In this document: positions 43,283-54,217 of the stretch, one piece after another
How the letters are laid out: each line of letters opens with the position of its first letter
Position numbering within the stretch: position 1 is the first letter of the stretch
Source: a bacterium
Lineage (GTDB): Bacteria > Bacteroidota > Ignavibacteria > Kapaibacteriales > Kapaibacteriaceae
Direction of reading: 5' to 3'
Length of the DNA: 64,000 nucleotides
Assembly (NCBI GenBank): GCA_036834845.1
Contig: DAITNB010000001.1
Span: 21,121 to 85,120, forward strand
Made by a program: the position numbers and the translations under genes
Notes under the pieces: generated by a model
What the model was told of the DNA's origin: nothing
Seen by the model: the letters and a program-made list of their open reading frames with translations, nothing else
The model's database searches: none

Positions 43283-43290
43283 TAACTTTG
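43283..43290 (+). promoter_or_regulatory. -7 box TAACTTTG (context CGTAACTTTG) upstream of uvrA
   Basis: Perfect TAnnTTTG, 25 nt upstream of the ATG at 43316. The same 10-mer occurs upstream of gyrA. Confidence 0.4.
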
Positions 43291-43315
43291 TGGTCACGCA
43301 GTTTCTATAGTGCCA

Positions 43316-46219
43316 ATGAAGCCCCCTTTCGACCCCACAACAGTTATCGGCCAAGAGCATACAACCATCTCCGTGCGTGGTGCGCGCGAGCACAATCTCA
43401 AGAACATTTCGCTCGATATCCCGCGTGATACCTTAACGGTAATAACCGGACTTAGCGGTTCGGGAAAGTCTTCGCTGGCGTTCGACACGGTATATGCCGA
43501 GGGTCAGCGTAGATACGTAGAATGTATGTCGTCCTACGCCCGGCAGTTTCTCGGCGTTATGAAGAAGCCGGATGTGGATGTAATAGAGGGTTTATCCCCC
43601 GCCATCTCTATCGAGCAAAAAAGCGTTGGAATGAGTCCACGCTCAACCGTGGGCACCGTTACAGAGATTTACGACTACCTGCGATTACTCTACGCGAAGA
43701 TTGGTGTGCAGTATTGTGTTCAGTGCAACATTCCGGTTCGGCAGCAGACACTCGATCAGATACTCGACTCGCTGTATGCACATCCCGTGGGCACAAGACT
43801 CCAGATTCTTAGTCCGGTAGTGAAGGGGCGCAAAGGACACTATCGAGAGCTGTTCGAGCAGTTTCGGCGTCAAGGTTTTACTCGTGTGCGCATAGATGGC
43901 GAGCTAGTGGAGATAACCGAGGGCATGCAGTTAGCGCGGTACAAGGTGCACACCATCGAACTCGTTATCGACAGACTTGCCACCGAGCCCGATAACCCCA
44001 AAAGACTTCGCGAGAGTGTAGAAACAGCACTCCATCTTGGTGAAGGGGGCATTACCATTCTCCGAGAGGAAGCCAACGGCGGGTGGGCAGAACATTTCTA
44101 CAGTACACAGTATGCATGTCCACAATGCGGAACATCATACGAAACACCCGCTCCCAACATGTTTTCGTTTAACTCTCCGTTTGGGGCATGTAACGTGTGC
44201 TCCGGTATTGGGGAGATGAACGACTTCGACAAGGCGTTGGTGGTGCCCGATCCAAATTTGGCGCTTGACTCGGGAGGTATTGCCCCCTTAGGAAAACGTC
44301 GCGAAACGTGGTTGTGGAAACAAGTTCACGCGTGGTGCGAGCAGCGTGGAATTGCCCTGAATACAAAGATTTCCGACTTCGATCCGAAGGCACTTCAGGA
44401 GCTTCTTTATGGTTCCGAAGGCGAGTCTGTTAACGTAACGTATGGCACCACACACGTAAAACACTCCTTTATTGGCGTCCTACCATCATTGCGCCATCAG
44501 TACGAGCAAACAACTACGACTACTGTTCGCAAGAGCATCGAGCGCTACTTTGCTACGGTTCCCTGCCGCGCTTGCCAAGGGCATCGGCTAAAGCGCGCAC
44601 ACCTACACGTGCGTGTGGCAGACAAAGGTATTCATCAGGTAACCACACTCGATATCCTCTCGGCCAAGGACTGGTTCACAACTCTCTCCGTGCAACTCAC
44701 GGATCGTCAGCAGATCATCGCGCACCTTATCCTCAAAGAAATAACCACCCGACTTGGCTTTCTTAGCGAGGTTGGATTAAACTACCTCACGCTCGATCGC
44801 AGTGCGCGCACCCTTTCGGGCGGCGAGTCGCAACGCATCCGACTAGCATCGCAGATTGGGTCGCAGCTTGTTGGAGTAACATACGTTCTTGACGAGCCAA
44901 GTATTGGTCTGCACCAACACGACAACGCCAAACTCATTGCATCGCTAAAGACACTACGCAACATTGGAAACACCATTGTAGTGGTAGAGCATGACAGAGA
45001 GATGATAGAGGAGGCCGATCATGTAATAGACATTGGACCCGGCGCCGGCGTACATGGTGGAGAAATTGTTGCCACGTTTTCTATGATGAGCGAAGCAACT
45101 CGGCCCAAATCCCTTTCATCTGCAACCGTGGATCGCTCCTTAACGCTGCAATACCTCACCGGAAAACGCACCGTAGAAACGCCATCAGAGCGTAGAGTGG
45201 GCAACGGCAAAACGCTCCGACTTGTAGGAGCCCGTGGCAACAATCTCAACAATGTAACTGTGGAGATACCGCTTGGCACCTTTACATGCGTAACCGGAAT
45301 GAGCGGTTCGGGAAAAAGCACGCTTATCAATGATACCCTTTACCCGATCCTCTCGAAGCACTTTCATCATGCCGATGTGGCGGCGCTACCATATGATTCG
45401 ATTGAGGGTTTAGACAGTATCGATAAAGTGATCGAGATTGATCAGACCCCTATTGGGCGCACGCCTCGGTCGAATCCGGCAACATACACTGGGCTATTCA
45501 CGCAGATTCGCGACTTCTTTACGCTGCTTCCGGAAGCGAAGATTCGCGGCTATGCTGCCGGACGATTTAGCTTTAATGTTTCTGGAGGTAGGTGCGAAGA
45601 GTGCGAAGGTGTAGGCATACGCAAAATCGAGATGAGCTTTCTGCCCGACGTGTACGTTCCGTGCGATAGTTGCGGAGGGAGGCGGTATAACACCGAAACG
45701 CTCAGTGTACGGTTTAAGGGCAAATCAATATCCGATGTGCTGAATATGACCGTTGAGGAGGCATATGCGTTGTTCGCAGACATACCTAAGATCCGCACAA
45801 AACTTGGTGCGTTGATGGATGTGGGTCTTACGTACATCACCCTGGGTCAGCAGGCGCCTACCCTTTCTGGTGGTGAGGCACAACGTGTGAAACTTGCCAC
45901 CGAACTCTCGAGAGCCAGCACCGGTAAAACACTCTACCTGTTAGATGAACCAACAACCGGACTGCATTTCGAAGACACACGTGTGCTGCTTCGGCTTCTG
46001 AATAAACTGGTGGAAAAAGGCAATACGGTTGTTGTAATCGAACACAACTTGGACGTAATCACGTTTGCCGACCATATCATCGATCTGGGTCCGGGCGGCG
46101 GAAGAGACGGTGGCTACCTTGTGGCAGCCGGAACGCCGGAGCACGTGGCGGGCATACCGGAAAGCATCACCGGTAGATATATTCGATCGGAGCTCGACGC
46201 AATTCGATTGAGACGGTAG
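43316..46219 (+). CDS. uvrA: Excinuclease ABC subunit A
   Basis: ..[37 protein letters not shown].., zinc-finger Cys pairs, and a second ATPase with ..[15 protein letters not shown].. and ..[12 protein letters not shown]... ATG at 43316 is preferred; GTG at 43310 is the ORF-track start. Confidence 0.97.
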
Positions 46220-46292
46220 GCAACAGAATCAGGGACTAAACGTCGTGGGCACGGCATAACTTGCATGAATTTGTACCGGGGACTAACTACGA

Positions 46293-48500
46293 ATGACCTT
46301 TGACCTTCGGCAGTGGCAAAAGCAGGCGTTGGATATATTGATCGAGGTTGCCGGACTAACGCAACGGCCCTCGGCCTTTAACCGAGCGCGCGCCCGCATC
46401 CTCGACATAACCGATCCACAATCCGCAACACTCGAGACCATTGCATCTGCGCTGCGGGAATTGGGTGTGGTTGCCCTCCTCCAAACAGCACCGGACGACG
46501 GAACGCCGCTAGAGTCTACCTCCACCGTGGTAATCCTCAAGGATGAATACCCCGAAAAACGTGTGCTACAAGCCGGCACCGATGCATGGCTGCACATACC
46601 AACGAACAGTAATGGAGAACGTCCGTTCGTTTTGATAATGGGAGACGTGAACTCCTTCCTCACGTCAGACGCGTCTATGCCCGAACATCGGGGTCACGAA
46701 CTACACTCACACGACCATCCGCTGGAAACAGGTTCCGGACACCACGGCCTCGGTGCCACGAAGTTGAAGGACGTGTGGCCGGCGATGAAGCGCATACTTA
46801 GGGCAGAGAAGAAGGACATCTACATTATCATCGTGTACTCCGTTTTGTCCAGCGTACTCGGTCTGGCGGTGCCCCTTAGCTCACAGGCAATTGTGAACGC
46901 CGTGGCTCTCGGAGTGTTTAGCCAGCAGTTGGTGGTGCTGTGTATCGTGGTGTTTATCGCCATGTTTGGTACGGCCGTTATTGCCGTATTCGAGCGATAC
47001 GTAATCGATATGGTGCAGAGACGAGTGTTCGTGAGTAGCGCGTTCGACATCATATACCGGCTGCCCCATTTCACTCACGCCTCTGTGCGCTCTACGTACA
47101 CACCCGAGCTTGTAAACCGGTTCTTCGATGTAATGACGATTCAGAAGTCTATCGGCAAGTTTCTCCTCGAAGGAGTAAACGCCGTTCTTGTATTGCTTGT
47201 AGGATTGTTGGTTTTGGGTATCTATCACCCATTCTTTCTCCTTTACGATATTCTCTTCATCTTCTTCATTCCGATTCTTGTTTTGGTTCTGGGCAAGGGA
47301 GCTATTGCCACTGCCGTAGAAGTATCGAAAAAGAAATACCTCACCGCTTCATGGTTAGAAGATGTGGCGCGCAACCAACTAGGAATCAAACTTGCAGACG
47401 CTACACCGTTTACATTCTCTCGCATTAACGAGATTGCCACCGGCTACGTAGAAGCGAAGCACAAACACTACATAGTGCTTGCCAGACAAATCTTCGGGTC
47501 CTTCTTATTCAAGGGTTTTGCAACAGTCGGAGTTCTTGCGCTGGGTGGAATTCTCGTTCTTGAGCAAGCAATTTCGCTTGGTCAGCTCGTTGCCGCAGAA
47601 ATTATCATCATCCTGATTCTTGGCGCAATGGAGAAGTTGATCAATCAATTCGATTTGTTTTACGACCTCGTGGCGGCTGTAGACAAACTCAGCATGATTG
47701 CCGATCAACCACTCGAAGATGTAGGGGGCGTGGCGGTTCCCCACCGGAAAGGTGGTGGAGAGGTTGCCATCCACAACGTGTCTTTTGCCTACAATCACCA
47801 TGATGTGCTTCATGGGGTTTCATTAACCGTAAAAGCCGGAGAGCGCATCAGCTTAGTGGGAGCAAGCGGCGCCGGTAAGTCCACCTTGGCCGCGCTAATT
47901 CTTGGGCTTGATGCGCCAAGTAGCGGGGCCATCGAGGTAAACGGCGTAGATACAAGAGTTGCCGATGTAAAAACGCTTCGTTCTCGTGTTGGTTATGTGT
48001 TTCCGGAAAGTCAAATATTGGCGGGAACTATACTCGACAATATCACATTGGGGCGCAGAGTAGATACGGCAACACTTAACTGGGCCCTTCAAATTGCGCG
48101 CCTTACGGAGCTTATCCGGGAGCTACCACTTGGAATCCACACAAAAATCTCGTCGAGTGGCGAGAGTATCTCCTATGGGGCGCGCAGGCGAATTCTCTTC
48201 GCACGAGCAATACTCGGAAAGCCAGAGATCCTGATAATTGATGAGGCGTTTGAAGGCATCGAGGATAGTACGAAGCTTGCGATGCTCGATGACGTAATGG
48301 CGCATTCAGATTGGACTGTAATCAACATTACCCACGACCCCGAAGTGGTGCATCGCACAAACATTGTGCACGTGCTCAACGAAGGTCACATCTGCGAAAC
48401 GGGAAGCCCGAGCGAGCTCCGTTCGCGTTCCGGTATGTTCTGCACACTCTTCCCGCACGAAGACACACGCTTCGGAAACGGAGGCACAAATGTCCGATAA
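46293..48500 (+). CDS. ABC exporter (TMD+NBD) with an N-terminal cysteine-free C39-peptidase-like domain; type I secretion / bacteriocin-exporter-like
   Basis: 735 aa. The first ~130 aa have a C39-like layout (..ALDILIEVAG..TLETIASALRELGVVA..STVVILKDEY..) but the first 170 residues contain no Cys at all. A His-rich linker follows (PEHRGHELHSHDHPLETGSGHHG), then a six-helix ABC exporter TMD and an NBD with Walker A GASGAGKST, Walker B ILIIDEA and H-loop ITHD. The signature motif reads ISYGARRR where LSGGQRQR is expected. Confidence 0.8.
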   Translation: MTFDLRQWQKQALDILIEVAGLTQRPSAFNRARARILDITDPQSATLETIASALRELGVVALLQTAPDDGTPLESTSTVVILKDEYPEKRVLQAGTDAWLHIPTNSNGERPFVLIMGDVNSFLTSDASMPEHRGHELHSHDHPLETGSGHHGLGATKLKDVWPAMKRILRAEKKDIYIIIVYSVLSSVLGLAVPLSSQAIVNAVALGVFSQQLVVLCIVVFIAMFGTAVIAVFERYVIDMVQRRVFVSSAFDIIYRLPHFTHASVRSTYTPELVNRFFDVMTIQKSIGKFLLEGVNAVLVLLVGLLVLGIYHPFFLLYDILFIFFIPILVLVLGKGAIATAVEVSKKKYLTASWLEDVARNQLGIKLADATPFTFSRINEIATGYVEAKHKHYIVLARQIFGSFLFKGFATVGVLALGGILVLEQAISLGQLVAAEIIIILILGAMEKLINQFDLFYDLVAAVDKLSMIADQPLEDVGGVAVPHRKGGGEVAIHNVSFAYNHHDVLHGVSLTVKAGERISLVGASGAGKSTLAALILGLDAPSSGAIEVNGVDTRVADVKTLRSRVGYVFPESQILAGTILDNITLGRRVDTATLNWALQIARLTELIRELPLGIHTKISSSGESISYGARRRILFARAILGKPEILIIDEAFEGIEDSTKLAMLDDVMAHSDWTVINITHDPEVVHRTNIVHVLNEGHICETGSPSELRSRSGMFCTLFPHEDTRFGNGGTNVR

Positions 48501-49764
48501 GCGCACACCACGGGTGGACTTTACAGACGTGTTGCCGCTGTACCAGCAGCGGAGTGTTTTTCGGCTTGTGTCTACAAACGGACTCCACAGACGACTAGTG
48601 GTGTTCATTGTGGCCCTAGTAGTGGCTACAGTTTTGTTCTTGGTATTTGTGCCATGGCAACAAACCGTAGTTGGAAGCGGGATTGTAACATCGTTTGCTC
48701 CCGATGCCCGACCCCAAACGGTTGAGAGTCAGATCTCGGGCAGGATTGTGCAATGGTTTGTTCGCGAAGGTGATGTGGTGCAGAAGGGCGACACTATATG
48801 TGTGCTGGCCGACATCAACGTGAACTTCATGGATACGGCATTGTTAAATCGCCTCCAAACACTTCGAGAGCGCACATTCGACGCACAAGAACGCGTTGTA
48901 GGTGTTGCTGTGCAGCGCCGAAAGCAGGCCGAGCAACGGTATCGCGCGTCGCTAGCACGATTTGAACGAAGTCTCATCGACTTAGAAATCGCTCGTACCC
49001 GATTCCGTCGCGCAGACACATTGTTCCGAGATGGTCTTATCTCTACACGAGACTTTGAATCAGCCCAAGCCGCACTTCAGGGTGCCGTTGCAGACTCCGT
49101 TACCTTTTCTACCGGGCTAACGGCAGCGCAGCAGGACATTGTGGCCTTTGTTGCCGAAGAAGAACGGGCCATGAATCAGGCCCTCGTGGCCATGCAGGAA
49201 GTAGATGTTCGCGTTGGGAATGCGCAGGGCAGGGTTGGTGCCGGCGTAGTTCTTGCGCCCATTAAGGGCACCGTTGTGCGCATTGCGAAGGCCGGCTCGG
49301 GCCAAACCGTGAAGGAAGGCGAGGAGCTTGCTCTCATCGTTCCCAAAACGTCCGATCAGGCCGTGGAGATTTACGTTGGCTCTATGGACGCTGCTCTAAT
49401 TGAACCAGGTAGATACGTGTCTCTGCAGTTTGCTGGATTCCCTGCGTTTCAGGTTAGCGGATGGCAAAATGTAAATGTGGGCATCTTTCATGGCAGAGTA
49501 AAAGTTGTTGATGCCGTAGACGATGGCACCGGACGATTCCGCGTCCTCGTTGTTCCAACAGAAGATTCCTACTACAAAGCATGGCCAAGCGACCGGTATC
49601 TGCGTCAGGGAACCGATGTATCCGGTTGGGTGCTTCTTGATGAAGTACCTATTGGTTACGAGCTTTGGCGAAGACTCATGGGCTTCCCGCCACAGTTCCC
49701 CGTAACCACCAAGGAGTCTTCCAAAGAATCGTCGAAGTCTGCCTCGAAGGACGCCAAGAAATGA
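48490..49764 (+). CDS. HlyD-family membrane fusion / periplasmic adaptor protein
   Basis: Start at MSDKRTP (48490, 11-nt overlap with the ABC gene). It has an N-terminal TM (LVVFIVALVVATVLFLVFV), a lipoyl-like hairpin (..ISGRIVQWFVREGDVVQKGDTICVL..), a long coiled-coil region and a C-terminal beta-barrel. The tail is Ser/Lys-rich. Confidence 0.85.
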   Translation: MSDKRTPRVDFTDVLPLYQQRSVFRLVSTNGLHRRLVVFIVALVVATVLFLVFVPWQQTVVGSGIVTSFAPDARPQTVESQISGRIVQWFVREGDVVQKGDTICVLADINVNFMDTALLNRLQTLRERTFDAQERVVGVAVQRRKQAEQRYRASLARFERSLIDLEIARTRFRRADTLFRDGLISTRDFESAQAALQGAVADSVTFSTGLTAAQQDIVAFVAEEERAMNQALVAMQEVDVRVGNAQGRVGAGVVLAPIKGTVVRIAKAGSGQTVKEGEELALIVPKTSDQAVEIYVGSMDAALIEPGRYVSLQFAGFPAFQVSGWQNVNVGIFHGRVKVVDAVDDGTGRFRVLVVPTEDSYYKAWPSDRYLRQGTDVSGWVLLDEVPIGYELWRRLMGFPPQFPVTTKESSKESSKSASKDAKK

Positions 49765-51140
49765 CGCACACTCTTCTTGTGCAGTTCCTTGCCCTGCTCG
49801 TTGTGTTCGTTTCCACTCTGCCTCCCACAACGGCACAGGTGTTAACGCTCGATGGGTTTCTTCTTCAGGTAGAGCGCACACACCCTTCACTTCGTTCTGC
49901 CGATTTCGAACCCGAACTCGCAGAAGCAGAGGTACGCAGTGCTCTCGGTAGGTTCGACCCCGTTCTCGATGTAACCTACGACTATAAAGACAAGGCAGGC
50001 TCGGATAAACTCAACCTGTTCGAAAGCAGCGTAGAGCTGCCACTCGATGTGTTGTTTGGTCCAAAAGTAAAAGCATCCTACAGTCGCGGTATTGGCTTTC
50101 AGATCGACCCCCAAAACCTAACCTCGCTGCCAGGTCAGGCCAGCATTGGTGTTTCGCTTCCGGTGCTGCAAGGCATTTTTACCGATGCCCGCCGAAACCA
50201 GTTACGGAAAGCACTGCTTCGACCCGACTTGGCCCTTGCGCAGTATCAGTTGGAGCGCAACAACCTTCTGCGCGCCGCCGCATTACGCTATTGGGATTGG
50301 AGTGAGGCCCAACAACTCGTGGCTGTGGCAGACAGTATCCTCGCACTCGCAGACCAGCGTCTGCAGTTCGTTGTTCGCAGAGCTCGCGCCGGCGAATCGG
50401 CCAGAATAGACAGCGTAGAAATTGCGCAAGAGGTGCAGCGGAGAATTGGCGAACGCTATCGGGCGCTGCGAATCTCCGAGCAGTCTGCCGTAGACCTTGG
50501 CGTGTTTCTTTGGAATCCCGACGGAACTCCTCGCCCCCTATCCGAGGTGCCCGAATTGCTTCCACTGAAGGCAGACACATCAGTTCGATCGCTTGACGCG
50601 GCAAACCTTGCGCGCCTGCGCAGACCAGAGGTGCGCCGGATAGACGTTATTCGACAAACATCGCGGCTCGACTCTTCATTGGCCTCCGAGCTTCTGCGTC
50701 CCTATGTTGAACTGCAGGCCGGCTTAGTTAGCTATGACGTAACGGCACCCTCTAAACTCGACTACAGCGTTGGTTTCAAAGTGCATCAACCTCTGTTGTT
50801 TCGTCAGGCAAATGCCTCCGTGCAAACTGCAGACATTGCGGTAAAGCGCGCCGACCTATCAGCAACCCTCGTTGAACGCCTTGTAGAAGCTGATGCCATA
50901 AACGCCGTTATTGCGCTCGACAGATCACGCGAGCGACTCGTTGCCGCCGACGAAGAGGTGCGTCTAGCGCGGATAATGGTAGATGCAGAACAGCGCCGTT
51001 TTCTCTCCGGCGATGCCTCGCTTTTGCAAGTAAACCTGCGCGAACGATTCTACGCCGAGGCCCTACTTCGCCAGGTGTCTGCACGCGCAGACTGGGCCCG
51101 AGCACTAATTGGTCTGAGATGGGCCACGGGAACCCTTTGA
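49761..51140 (+). CDS. TolC-family outer-membrane efflux protein
   Basis: Start at MTHTLLVQFLALLVVFVSTLPPTTAQ (signal peptide, ATGA overlap with the HlyD stop). Two repeated alpha-helical/beta-strand halves are typical of OEP/TolC proteins. Confidence 0.8.
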   Translation: MTHTLLVQFLALLVVFVSTLPPTTAQVLTLDGFLLQVERTHPSLRSADFEPELAEAEVRSALGRFDPVLDVTYDYKDKAGSDKLNLFESSVELPLDVLFGPKVKASYSRGIGFQIDPQNLTSLPGQASIGVSLPVLQGIFTDARRNQLRKALLRPDLALAQYQLERNNLLRAAALRYWDWSEAQQLVAVADSILALADQRLQFVVRRARAGESARIDSVEIAQEVQRRIGERYRALRISEQSAVDLGVFLWNPDGTPRPLSEVPELLPLKADTSVRSLDAANLARLRRPEVRRIDVIRQTSRLDSSLASELLRPYVELQAGLVSYDVTAPSKLDYSVGFKVHQPLLFRQANASVQTADIAVKRADLSATLVERLVEADAINAVIALDRSRERLVAADEEVRLARIMVDAEQRRFLSGDASLLQVNLRERFYAEALLRQVSARADWARALIGLRWATGTL

Positions 51141-51146
51141 TTCCCG

Positions 51147-51154
51147 TATCTTTG
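51147..51154 (+). promoter_or_regulatory. -7 box TATCTTTG (context CGTATCTTTG) upstream of etfB
   Basis: Perfect TAnnTTTG, 34 nt upstream of the ATG at 51189. Confidence 0.4.
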
Positions 51155-53686: not shown

Positions 53687-54217
53687 CTATTCGTGTTTCA
53701 ATAGTTTTAACGCGGCTCTCTCTGCGGGGAGTCGCACAAACCAGAGCATTGCGCCATTTACAACCGTACCTATCAGCGCAGTTACTGGAGCGCCCACCAA
53801 GAGTGGCACGCTGATAAATTCCAGCATAACTGCCACGTAGTTTGGATGGGGCAAAAACGTGTACGGACCTCGCCGCACCAACACTGAACCCGGAACAACG
53901 ATGATCCGCGTGTTCCATGCATCGCCTAGTGAGGAAATAGACCAGTACCGGAGAAACTGTGCTGCAACAAAAACGCTCGCCCAAAGTGTCCACAGGGGTT
54001 GCAATTCCACTGTTGAATGGTTGGAGGACCGCATAATCGATTCGGCATTGAAGGCAATAAACCACGCCGCATGCAGCACAACAACAAACGGGTAGTGTGA
54101 GGCGCCAAACTCTACGCCGCCACGTTCAAAGGCTCGTTTTGCGTTTCTCCGAGCAAGTACAAGTTCGCTCGCGCGTTGGAGCACAAGTACCACCGTTACC
54201 AATTCTAACACAAGCAT
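53687..54217 (-). CDS. ICMT/PEMT-type membrane methyltransferase (BpsB/SrsB-like)
   Basis: 176 aa, multi-TM, with ..VRRGPYTFLPHPNYVAVMLEFISVPLL.., the isoprenylcysteine carboxyl methyltransferase family motif. It lies directly downstream of a type III PKS. Confidence 0.75.
   Translation of the reverse strand: MLVLELVTVVLVLQRASELVLARRNAKRAFERGGVEFGASHYPFVVVLHAAWFIAFNAESIMRSSNHSTVELQPLWTLWASVFVAAQFLRYWSISSLGDAWNTRIIVVPGSVLVRRGPYTFLPHPNYVAVMLEFISVPLLVGAPVTALIGTVVNGAMLWFVRLPAERAALKLLKHE

What the first reader, a model, noticed from the sequence alone, without database searches (positions are those of the whole stretch)
46293..51140. Tripartite ABC/HlyD/TolC exporter with a cysteine-free C39-like domain, His-rich linker and degenerate ABC signature; no cargo gene nearby
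Seen in the sequence:
- Three genes are coupled by overlaps: 11 nt at 48490-48500 and ATGA at 49761-49764.
- The ABC protein has about 165 extra N-terminal residues laid out like a C39 bacteriocin-processing peptidase. The first 170 residues contain no cysteine, so it cannot be an active Cys protease.
- The linker PEHRGHELHSHDHPLETGSGHHG carries 7 His in 23 aa.
- The C-loop reads ISYGARRR where LSGGQRQR is expected. Walker A, Walker B and the H-loop look intact.
- The flanking genes are uvrA and etfBA, and the flanking gaps (73 and 48 nt) hold no small ORF.

Established knowledge: inactive C39-like domains (CLDs) occur in HlyB-type type I secretion ABC proteins, where they dock unprocessed substrates. 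Active C39 domains cleave GG-leader peptides.

Inference:
- This is a type I-like secretion machine whose substrate is encoded elsewhere.
- A homodimer would have two degenerate signature motifs, which suggests atypical ATPase behaviour.
- The His cluster might bind metal.
Basis: partly seen in the sequence, partly recalled or inferred. Interest (0 to 1): 0.6.

Follow-up and report, generated by a model that had tools for sequence, protein, structure and literature searches.

The report
Three-part exporter with non-standard ATP motor
These three genes encode an envelope-spanning export pump from an undescribed family found across the Bacteroidota; its relic protease-like domain is dispensable and its ATP motor departs from the standard design, so what it exports and how it is powered remain open.

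Summary
All sequence observations hold: gene overlaps, flanking gaps, a Cys-free N-terminus, 7 His in 23 residues, ISYGARRR in place of LSGGQ, and intact Walker A, Walker B and H-loop.

The N-domain is a remote C39 relative. Pfam misses it. Profile-profile comparison gives 92% probability (score 41, shuffled controls at most 13.8), and a confident AF2 model finds PCAT1, LahT and HlyB C39 domains first. It has no catalytic triad and no HlyB-type His/Trp pair. It was lost at least 4 times, including in a congener at the same locus.

The Q-loop Gln is missing family-wide and the D-loop is changed. One sister clade at the same locus has also lost the catalytic Glu and the H-loop His. Remote Bacteroidota orthologues, all with the same three genes, have dead Walker B and H-loop motifs. 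The membrane domain is more conserved than the NBD.

The genome holds no RTX, GG-leader, NHLP or Nif11 cargo, and no gene travels with the trio in about 12 neighbourhoods.

This is the least-decayed branch of an undescribed, T1SS-derived, Bacteroidota-wide family. Substrate and energy source are unknown. The scan has flagged this or closely related families before on other DNA.

The parts
46293..48500 (+). ABC protein (735 aa): relic C39-like domain, His-rich linker, six-helix type IV exporter membrane domain, and a non-canonical NBD
   Evidence: ORF. Pfam finds ABC_membrane and ABC_tran only. The best NCBIfam match, TIGR03797, scores 253 bits against a cut-off of 709. The genome holds no paralogue.
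46293..46667 (+). N-terminal C39-like domain (residues 1-125), with three helices and a four-stranded sheet and no Cys/His/Asp triad
   Evidence: AF2 models have pLDDT 82.5 and 83.3. The sensible top Foldseek hits are all C39 structures: 7n87 at probability 0.80-0.82, also PCAT1, 6mpz and 3zua. hhalign in local mode gives 92.3% probability and score 41, against controls of at most 13.8. The catalytic His column holds P87 and the Cys column falls in a gap. Pfam gives no hit.
46680..46748 (+). His-rich stretch (residues 130-152, 7 His in 23 aa) inside a disordered linker spanning residues 126-159
   Evidence: Located. pLDDT is below 50 for residues 138-152. His enrichment across the family is 13.2% in the linker against 2.1% elsewhere.
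46770..47732 (+). Membrane domain (residues 160-480) carrying the family-defining motifs PELVNRFFDV, YHPFF, SKKKY..WLEDVAR and GQLVAAE, the last containing the conserved TM6 residue Glu436
   Evidence: Mean pairwise identity is 60% and 34% of columns are at least 90% conserved, against 46% and 16% for the NBD. The motifs are shared with orthologues of about 32% identity across the phylum and are absent from a generic exporter in the same genome.
47859..47885 (+). Walker A, GASGAGKST (residues 523-531), intact
   Evidence: G116, K115 and T114 of 117 sequences.
48003..48005 (+). Q-loop position holds Pro571 in place of the invariant Gln
   Evidence: Alignment to ABCB1. Family census at this column: P61, S14, T11, A9, with Gln essentially absent. 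All four other exporters in the genome have Q.
48168..48191 (+). Degenerate signature ISYGARRR (residues 626-633) where LSGGQ[KR]QR is expected
48228..48266 (+). Walker B ILIIDE, with the catalytic Glu651 retained, followed by an altered D-loop AFEGIED in place of ATSALD
   Evidence: The Glu is replaced by Ser in the P0051 clade, and the motif reads ND, ED or EE in remote orthologues.
48333..48335 (+). H-loop His681, retained here
   Evidence: census: H86, N13, F11, V4. The His is lost in the P0051 clade and in remote orthologues.
48490..49764 (+). HlyD-type adaptor (424 aa) with a 36-aa cytoplasmic N-terminus, one TM helix, and a Lys/Ser-rich C-terminal tail
   Evidence: Pfam finds Biotin_lipoyl_2, HlyD_3 and HlyD_D23. 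The best NCBIfam match is type_I_hlyD at 70 bits, below its cut-off. The best solved relative is HlyD, 8dck_C, E 4.5e-5. It has no paralogue in the genome. Specific orthologues sit beside every family ABC gene examined.
49761..51140 (+). TolC-like outer-membrane factor (459 aa) with a signal peptide and no lipobox Cys
   Evidence: PF02321 matches twice, E 1.7e-29. The N-terminus is shown. It is one of about 7 OEP genes in the genome. Orthologues follow the adaptor gene in every locus examined.
51126..51147 (+). Terminator-like hairpin overlapping the OEP stop codon, immediately before the etfB promoter box TATCTTTG (51147-51154)
   Evidence: No TAnnTTTG box lies between uvrA and the ABC gene, so the trio may be read from the uvrA promoter at 43283-43290.

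Best explanation
**What it is (shown)**
- The three genes encode one envelope-spanning exporter of T1SS architecture: a homodimeric type IV ABC-fold inner-membrane protein, a TM-anchored HlyD-type adaptor and a TolC-like channel.
- It belongs to an orthologous three-gene family present across the Bacteroidota. I could not find the family described in the papers searched.
- The family is defined by a strongly conserved membrane domain, not by its NBD.
- The N-terminal domain descends from a C39 peptidase but has lost the catalytic triad. It has no conserved surface residue, and lineages that keep the pump have deleted it. It is therefore a relic or accessory, not the essential substrate dock it is in HlyB.
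- The NBD of this member keeps the ATP-binding and hydrolytic residues: the Walker A Lys, the Walker B Asp-Glu and the H-loop His.
- The NBD lacks the Q-loop Gln, the canonical signature and the canonical D-loop.
- Orthologues in a sister clade and in other Bacteroidota families lack the catalytic residues altogether.

**How it most likely works (inferred)**
- Canonical alternating ATP hydrolysis is not what selection maintains in this family.
- In this member, ATP binding, with at most slow hydrolysis, probably gates or regulates the dimer.
- The His-rich cytosolic linker is a candidate metal or regulatory element.
- The substrate is a conserved cell product not encoded next to the pump.
- It is not an RTX protein or a double-glycine-leader peptide.
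- I put about 55% on a non-gene-encoded envelope lipid, glycolipid or metabolite, about 30% on a protein or peptide with an unrecognised signal, and the rest on something else.
For: **Architecture and family**
- Architecture.
- The genes are coupled by overlaps.
- The genome holds no paralogue of any of the three genes.
- The same trio sits in about 12 different neighbourhoods from Kapabacteria to Chloroherpeton with no recurrent neighbour.
- Orthologues were found in 30 of 41 related genomes.
- In 8 of 8 remote Bacteroidota loci examined, specific adaptor and OEP orthologues lie beside the ABC gene.

**C39 ancestry**
- Foldseek top hits: 7n87, PCAT1, 6mpz, 3zua.
- hhalign: 92% probability, score 41, against 30 shuffled controls of at most 13.8.
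- One family member scores 21 bits against a C39 HMM over the His strand.

**Relic status of the N-domain**
- Only 1 of 125 columns is at least 90% conserved.
- The domain was lost at least 4 times.
- It is deleted at the same locus in G024 and in P0050.

**Non-canonical NBD**
- Motif census over 117 homologues.
- The P0051 clade, at the same uvrA-trio-etfBA locus, has catalytic Glu to Ser, H-loop His to Phe/Val, and the A-loop aromatic to Asp/Glu.
- Remote orthologues have ND, ED or EE Walker B motifs and no H-loop His.
- The membrane domain is more conserved than the NBD.

**No classical cargo**
- PF00353, TIGR03798 and PF03412 found nothing in a genome that is 99.6% complete. TIGR03793 also found nothing, but its controls did not ring, so that search is uninformative.
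- Regex scans for GG leaders and GGxGxD arrays found nothing convincing.
Against: - This member keeps every residue strictly needed to hydrolyse ATP, so it may be an ordinary, if slow, ATPase.
- ISYGA keeps the Ser and the second Gly that contact the gamma-phosphate, and natural signatures vary at the other positions.
- A Gln or Glu three residues after P571 (Q49/E39 in the family) might substitute for the Q-loop Gln.
- The C39 fold matches have weak Foldseek E-values (0.12 or worse; TM 0.41-0.48).
- The substrate class is pure inference from missing linkage and missing known cargo signals. C-terminal T1SS signals cannot be recognised from sequence.
- The homodimer is assumed, not shown.
- Nothing has been measured.
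Confidence: 0.65

Rival explanations
1. It is a classical group-2 (CLD-type) type I secretion system. The homodimer hydrolyses ATP normally despite a variant signature. The C39-like domain docks an unfolded protein substrate that carries a C-terminal signal and is encoded elsewhere in the genome.
For: - Walker A, Walker B with Glu651, and the H-loop His are intact.
- The signature keeps the Ser and the second Gly.
- The adaptor's nearest solved relative is HlyD.
- The ABC protein's best family matches are peptide and T1SS exporters.
- The N-domain is C39-like without the Cys.
Against: - CLD systems go with RTX substrates (Lecher et al. as summarised in PMC8277102), and no RTX protein is present.
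- The His/Trp pair typical of CLDs is not conserved.
- The domain is deleted in congeners that keep the pump at the same locus.
- The Q-loop Gln is lost family-wide.
- Orthologues with dead NBDs keep the trio.
Confidence: 0.2
2. The ABC protein works as a heterodimer with an unlinked half-transporter that supplies a canonical signature. That would give one consensus and one degenerate ATP site, as in TM287/288 or TmrAB.
For: - The pattern of intact Walker A, Walker B and H-loop with a degenerate signature is that of the catalytically active chain of such heterodimers (general knowledge; PMC7756269).
- The genome has a singleton half-transporter at C7:94529-96286 with a canonical LSGGQ and Walker B Glu replaced by Asp.
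Against: - Only one ABC gene travels with the adaptor and OEP in every locus examined.
- The lost Q-loop Gln lies in what would be the consensus site.
- The C7 protein is a generic exporter of 26% identity. It has another plausible partner, C7:9039-10793, whose signature is LSVGQ.
- T1SS and PCAT ABC proteins are homodimers.
Confidence: 0.05
3. It is a metal or metallophore exporter, and the cytosolic His-rich linker binds or senses the metal.
For: - His enrichment in the linker is 6-fold and recurs in lineages where the linker sequence cannot be aligned.
- One orthologue lies next to a Haem_bd gene and another next to a cbb3 oxidase.
Against: - Several clades have no His in the linker, or no linker at all, and still keep the pump.
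- The neighbours are not recurrent.
- No metallophore biosynthesis genes are linked.
Confidence: 0.08
4. It is a drug or lipid efflux pump of a characterised ABC tripartite family such as MacAB-TolC or DevBCA/HgdBC.
For: It has a tripartite layout with an adaptor and an OEP. Weak NCBIfam matches of the adaptor to DevB and EmrA fall far below their cut-offs.
Against: - The ABC protein has the type IV exporter membrane domain (PF00664), not the FtsX/MacB_PCD domains.
- The NBD is fused C-terminally.
- No family cut-off is reached.
Confidence: 0.02

Closest known systems
HlyB-HlyD-TolC haemolysin type I secretion system of E. coli (group 2 T1SS; CLD structure 3ZUA, complex 8DCK)
   Same: - Three components in the same order of function.
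- A type IV ABC fold with an N-terminal C39-like domain that lacks the catalytic Cys.
- A TM-anchored HlyD-type adaptor; HlyD is the adaptor's best solved relative.
- A TolC-like channel.
   Different: - No RTX substrate exists and no substrate gene is linked.
- The N-domain is too diverged for Pfam to detect, lacks the conserved His/Trp pair, and is dispensable.
- The Q-loop Gln, signature and D-loop are non-canonical.
- The OEP is encoded within the operon.
- The membrane domain, not the NBD, is the conserved core.
PCAT1, ComA and LahT peptidase-containing ABC exporters (4RY2, 7N87, 8HF7, 6MPZ)
   Same: - They give the best structural matches to the N-domain.
- They are among the best solved sequence relatives of the transporter core.
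   Different: - The Cys/His/Asp triad is absent here.
- No double-glycine-leader peptide was found.
- PCATs of Gram-positive bacteria have no adaptor or OEP.
NHLP bacteriocin export ABC subunit 2 (NCBIfam TIGR03797)
   Same: It gives the highest-scoring curated family match, 253 bits over residues 162-719.
   Different: - The score is far below the cut-off of 709.
- The N-domain is not covered by the match.
- No second ABC subunit is present, and the NHLP-leader search found nothing but its controls did not ring, so it is uninformative.
Heterodimeric type IV ABC exporters with one degenerate site (TM287/288, TmrAB, BmrCD)
   Same: The signature is degenerate while Walker A, Walker B and the H-loop are intact in the same chain.
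   Different: - There is a single ABC gene, so both sites would be degenerate.
- The Q-loop is also lost.
- Orthologues lose the catalytic residues as well.

Membership tests
Group 2 T1SS (HlyB-type, with CLD) | Type IV ABC exporter with a C-terminal NBD, plus a HlyD-type adaptor and a TolC-like OMF | tested here: met
   Pfam and NCBIfam results. HlyD 8dck_C is the adaptor's best solved relative.
Group 2 T1SS (HlyB-type, with CLD) | N-terminal domain with the C39 fold and the catalytic Cys replaced | tested here: met
   hhalign gives 92% probability and score 41, against controls of at most 13.8. The top sensible Foldseek hits are all C39 structures, at weak E-values. There is no Cys before residue 217.
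Group 2 T1SS (HlyB-type, with CLD) | Conserved His stacked on a conserved Trp in the CLD (PMC8277102) | tested here: not met
   Only G58 is nearly invariant across 30 N-domains. The His column holds Pro in the query and His in about 5 of 30 sequences. No Trp is conserved.
Group 2 T1SS (HlyB-type, with CLD) | An RTX (GGxGxD repeat) substrate with a C-terminal signal | tested here: not met
   PF00353 finds nothing in a 99.6%-complete genome. No ORF has more than 3 GGxGxD motifs. No cargo gene is linked in about 12 neighbourhoods.
Group 2 T1SS (HlyB-type, with CLD) | Canonical NBD motifs (Q-loop Gln, LSGGQ, SALD) | tested here: not met
   P571, ISYGA and EGIE occupy these positions, and the deviations are family-wide.
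PCAT / AMS exporters (active Peptidase_C39, PF03412) | A PF03412 match and a catalytic Cys/His/Asp triad | tested here: not met
   PF03412 gives no hit at E up to 1. The triad positions are a gap, Pro87, and a non-conserved residue.
PCAT / AMS exporters (active Peptidase_C39, PF03412) | A double-glycine-leader peptide substrate | tested here: not met
   The TIGR03798 search and the regex scan found no convincing candidate; the TIGR03793 search found nothing but its controls did not ring, so it is uninformative.
NHLP bacteriocin exporter ABC2 (TIGR03797) | A score above the curated cut-off of 709 bits | tested here: not met
   The score is 253 bits.
MacAB-TolC / DevBCA (type VII ABC tripartite pumps) | An FtsX/MacB_PCD membrane domain with a separate or N-terminal NBD | tested here: not met
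   The membrane domain is PF00664 and no FtsX domain is found.
Heterodimeric ABC exporter with one degenerate site | A second, co-encoded half-transporter | tested here: not met
   Every locus examined has a single ABC gene, and the genome holds no close paralogue.
Bacteroidota-wide ABC-adaptor-OEP family (undescribed; defined here) | The membrane-domain motifs PEL(V/M)NRFFD, YHPFF, SK.KY..WLEE.AR and GQ(L/F)VA(A/S)E, with co-encoded specific adaptor and OEP orthologues | tested here: met
   All motifs are present in the query and in 8 of 8 remote loci. Adaptor E-values run from 1e-52 to 1e-105 and OEP E-values from 1e-23 to 1e-103.

The most novel reading that the evidence does not exclude
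This Kapabacteria gene is the transitional form of a Bacteroidota-wide family of T1SS-derived three-part exporters that have given up ATP hydrolysis as their power stroke. The ATP site survives here only as a binding or regulatory switch. Transport of a conserved housekeeping envelope component is driven some other way, for example through the invariant membrane-embedded Glu436 in TM6 and the proton gradient.
Probability: 0.3. Interest if true: 0.8.

Novelty: new variant of a known kind. Interest (0 to 1): 0.55.

Why it matters
- ABC exporters and type I secretion are textbook ATP-driven machines, and their NBDs are normally the best-conserved part.
- In this family that pattern is inverted. 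The membrane domain and its two partners are held constant from Kapabacteria and Chlorobi relatives to other Bacteroidota, while the NBD drifts.
- The NBD ranges from non-canonical but probably ATP-binding, as here, to clearly hydrolysis-dead, and the C39-like domain is shed repeatedly.
- This gives a natural series for asking what ATP binding, as opposed to hydrolysis, contributes to tripartite export.
- It also points to an unidentified housekeeping export function in a major phylum.
- It breaks the published correlation between CLD-bearing transporters and RTX substrates.

Tried and rejected
- **Sequence searches for C39.** Pfam and a PDB profile search with the N-domain found no C39. The PDB search's best hit, exopolyphosphatase at E 0.0036, has no structural support and was dismissed.
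- **N-domain profile against 1.84 billion representatives.** It returned only 22 clusters, all from this ABC family or fragments of it. It gave no bridge to true C39 domains.
- **Cargo searches.** RTX, NHLP, Nif11 and C39 searches of the genome found nothing. The NHLP control did not ring anywhere, so that negative result is weak.
- **Regex scan for GG leaders.** It gave only 9 distinct hits (13 before merging alternative starts), all implausible ORFs or fragments.
- **Neighbourhood comparison for a travelling cargo gene.** About 12 loci showed nothing recurrent. A T9SS-tailed protein lies downstream in two related genomes only.
- **Link to the nearby type III PKS lipid cassette.** Rejected, because the proximity holds only within the family that shares the whole ftsK-uvrA-...-PKS gene order and not elsewhere.
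- **Shifted LSGGQ.** Rejected.
- **MacAB and DevCBA.** Rejected.
- **Literature.** Five searches found no description of this family.

Full report
**Observation**

The three ORFs are as described. The ABC gene is 46293-48500 (735 aa). The adaptor is 48490-49764 (424 aa from the ATG, matching the 403-455 aa of its orthologues). The outer-membrane factor is 49761-51140 (459 aa with a signal peptide).

One search confirms the following:
- the 11-nt overlap and the ATGA overlap;
- the 73-nt and 48-nt flanking gaps;
- the linker PEHRGHELHSHDHPLETGSGHHG at residues 130-152, with 7 His in 23 aa.

The first Cys is residue 217. The C-loop is ISYGARRR at residues 626-633. The protein contains no SGG or GGQ anywhere, so a shifted alignment cannot restore LSGGQ. 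Walker A, Walker B and the H-loop are intact.

**Family assignment**

Pfam sees only ABC_membrane and ABC_tran in the ABC protein, HlyD and biotin-lipoyl-like domains in the adaptor, and two OEP repeats in the third protein. There is no FtsX/MacB domain, which excludes MacAB and DevBCA.

No NCBIfam cut-off is reached. The ranking is NHLP ABC2 at 253 bits, then NHLP ABC1, LssB, bacteriocin_ABC, HlyB and PrtD. This places the core among the peptide and protein exporters. The adaptor's best solved relative is HlyD of the HlyB/HlyD complex (8dck_C, E 4.5e-5).

**The N-domain**

Sequence methods fail to recognise it. PF03412 gives no hit at E up to 1. A 30-sequence profile finds no C39 chain in the PDB.

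Structure and profile-profile methods succeed:
- Two AF2 models built on a 44-sequence alignment are confident (pLDDT 82.5 and 83.3, above 90 over residues 1-100). They show three helices followed by a four-stranded sheet.
- In Foldseek against the PDB, the sensible top hits are all C39 domains. These are the PCAT1 peptidase domain 7n87 (probability 0.80-0.82, TM 0.41-0.47), seven PCAT1 full-length entries, LahT150 6mpz (TM 0.45-0.48) and the HlyB CLD 3zua (TM 0.36-0.43). No E-value is better than 0.12.
- I built a C39 alignment from 20 PF03412-positive loci of the same class and compared it with the N-domain alignment by hhalign. Local mode gives 92.3% probability, E 5.4e-7 and score 41.0 over 101 columns. 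Thirty column-shuffled controls reach at most 13.8 and the reversed control 13.0.
- One family member (P0025) scores 21 bits against the C39 HMM on its own. Its GHIVRV segment aligns with the catalytic-His strand.

In these alignments the catalytic Cys column falls in a gap of the family profile. The His column holds Pro87 in the query and His in only about 5 of 30 members. No Asp is conserved.

It is not a HlyB-type CLD, for three reasons:
- The His/Trp stacking pair described as characteristic of CLDs (PMC8277102) is absent.
- Only one column (G58) of 125 is at least 90% conserved.
- The domain occurs in only 22 clusters among 1.84 billion representatives, always on this ABC protein.

It is also dispensable:
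- On a tree of 117 homologues it was lost at least 4 times by well-supported branches, and 10 times by parsimony.
- In congener G024 the 575-aa orthologue starts about 49 nt after the uvrA stop, at the same uvrA-ABC-adaptor-OEP locus.
- P0050 (587 aa) shows the same deletion within the full ftsK-uvrA-trio-etfBA gene order.

**The NBD**

A census over 117 homologues, with the genome's four ordinary exporters as references, shows:

| Motif | State in the family |
|---|---|
| Walker A | conserved |
| Q-loop Gln | essentially never present (P61, S14, T11, A9) |
| Signature | [LIV][SAP][YLFE][GS][LMV]RRR |
| D-loop | x-G-[IL]-[ED] in place of SALD |
| Walker B Asp | invariant |
| Catalytic Glu | E97, S15 |
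| H-loop His | H86, N13, F11, V4 |

The replacement motifs are themselves conserved (for example DEAF.GIE and N-I-[ST]-H-D-P-E). This looks like an altered design, not random decay.

Broken down by clade, the query's clade keeps Glu651 and His681. The P0051 clade sits at the same uvrA-trio-etfBA locus. It has the A-loop aromatic replaced by Asp/Glu, the second signature Gly by Ser, the catalytic Glu by Ser, and the H-loop His by Phe/Val.

The genome holds no partner ABC gene, and no paralogue of the adaptor or OEP at E below 1e-5. A homodimer would therefore have two non-canonical sites.

**Extent of the family**

Orthologues occur in 30 of 41 related genomes. In a 301-genome sample of the phylum, 51 genomes have a match at E of 1e-90 or better. 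I fetched eight of the more distant loci, at 29-49% identity. All eight have the ABC gene followed by specific orthologues of this adaptor (E 1e-52 to 1e-105) and this OEP (E 1e-23 to 1e-103).

Their NBDs are progressively dead. Walker B reads ILND, LEDP, LEEP or LEDA. The H-loop His is replaced by Asn, Ser, Gly or Asp.

Their membrane domains share the motifs PEL(V/M)NRFFD, YHPFF, SK.KY..WLEE.AR and GQ(L/F)VA(A/S)E, along with EK.I and YD.LTA. A generic exporter from the same genome lacks all of them.

Within the closer family, conservation by domain is:

| Domain | Mean pairwise identity | Columns at least 90% conserved |
|---|---|---|
| Membrane domain | 60% | 34% |
| NBD | 46% | 16% |
| N-domain | 22% | 1% |

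Against the remote orthologues, the query's membrane domain (34-37% identity) is generally closer than its NBD (26-30% in six of the seven; the two are about equal, 36% and 37%, in L043). Against the generic exporter the order is reversed: NBD 35%, membrane domain 17%. Selection in this family acts on the membrane domain and its two partners, not on ATP hydrolysis.

**Cargo**

The 99.6%-complete genome gave no hit for the following:
- PF03412;
- RTX repeats;
- an NHLP leader, though that search's controls did not ring, so it is a weak negative;
- a Nif11 leader;
- a convincing double-glycine leader, or any GGxGxD array.

The trio sits in unrelated neighbourhoods. These include Chloroherpeton, a Thermochlorobacter-like genome, 'Ca. 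Kapabacteria thiocyanatum' and several other Kapabacteria. Nothing recurs beside it.

The published rule that CLD transporters go with RTX substrates does not hold here.

**His-rich linker**

The linker is predicted to be disordered (pLDDT below 50). Across 81 full-length homologues, His makes up 13.2% of linker residues against 2.1% elsewhere. The enrichment recurs in lineages whose linkers cannot be aligned. Several clades have none. It is probably functional where present, as a metal-binding or regulatory element, but it is not essential to the pump.

**Interpretation**

The best-supported reading is a T1SS-derived tripartite exporter. It belongs to an undescribed Bacteroidota-wide family whose functional core is the membrane domain, the adaptor and the OEP. 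This member is the least-decayed form. It can probably still bind ATP and may hydrolyse it slowly. Because orthologues with dead sites keep the whole machine, canonical hydrolysis is unlikely to be the conserved power stroke.

The substrate is unknown. Unlinked, single-copy, core-like conservation and the lack of known cargo signals make me favour a non-gene-encoded envelope molecule over a protein, but this is inference.

Rivals, all listed with odds:
- a classical CLD-type T1SS;
- an unlinked heterodimer partner, such as the singleton with Glu replaced by Asp at C7:94529;
- a metal-related exporter;
- a MacAB-like pump.

**Literature and earlier scan notes**

Five full-text searches found no description of this family.

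The scan's own earlier notes had flagged the same or closely related families on other genomes as three-part exporters with dead ATPase domains. I used those as leads and tested them here with the clade census and the phylum-wide loci. They hold for the sister and remote clades but not literally for this gene, which keeps its catalytic residues.

**Limits**
- Nothing has been measured.
- The fold matches are weak by E-value.
- The homodimer is assumed.
- The absence of cargo rests on known signal types only.

Noticed in passing
window 43283-51154: Perfect TAnnTTTG boxes precede uvrA (43283-43290) and etfB (51147-51154), but none lies in the 73-nt gap before the ABC gene. A terminator-like hairpin sits at 51126-51147. 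The trio may be co-transcribed with uvrA, and the uvrA-trio adjacency is conserved in this family of Kapabacteria (L002, L009, L034, L037). The box is depleted in the window as a whole: 16 found against 29 expected.
   Followed up: partly
own genome, contig C7:94529-96286 and C7:9039-10793 (outside the window): Two unlinked generic ABC half-transporters have complementary deviations. One has Walker B ILILDD (catalytic Glu replaced by Asp) with a canonical LSGGQ. The other has signature LSVGQ with a canonical Walker B. They may form a heterodimer with one degenerate site even though they lie 84 kb apart.
   Followed up: no
L032 (P0112) and L038 (P0102): A sister clade (P0099-P0118, about 605 aa) has signature LSESILCR, H-loop Asn and no N-domain. 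It stands alone without an adaptor or OEP. In one case a small cNMP-binding protein follows it.
   Followed up: partly
window 49700-49761: The adaptor ends in a low-complexity Lys/Ser tail, TTKESSKESSKSASKDAKK. The G024 orthologue has a similar tail (KDTKVSSKSSAKDEAT).
   Followed up: no
L035 12345-14573 and L036 13619-15874: In two related Kapabacteria genomes, a protein of about 745 aa with a T9SS C-terminal tail (CarboxypepD_reg / He_PIG) lies within 2 kb downstream of the trio. This is not seen in the other neighbourhoods.
   Followed up: no
L034 1-3846: In the P0051-clade genome, a separate OEP-TetR-adaptor-MacB operon lies divergently upstream of uvrA. That genome therefore carries a conventional MacAB-type pump right beside the non-canonical trio.
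   Followed up: no
L001 3697-4383 and window 53687-54217: An ICMT/PEMT-type membrane methyltransferase lies within about 6 kb of the trio both in Chloroherpeton (without a PKS) and in the Kapabacteria locus (as part of the type III PKS cassette). This is probably coincidence.
   Followed up: no
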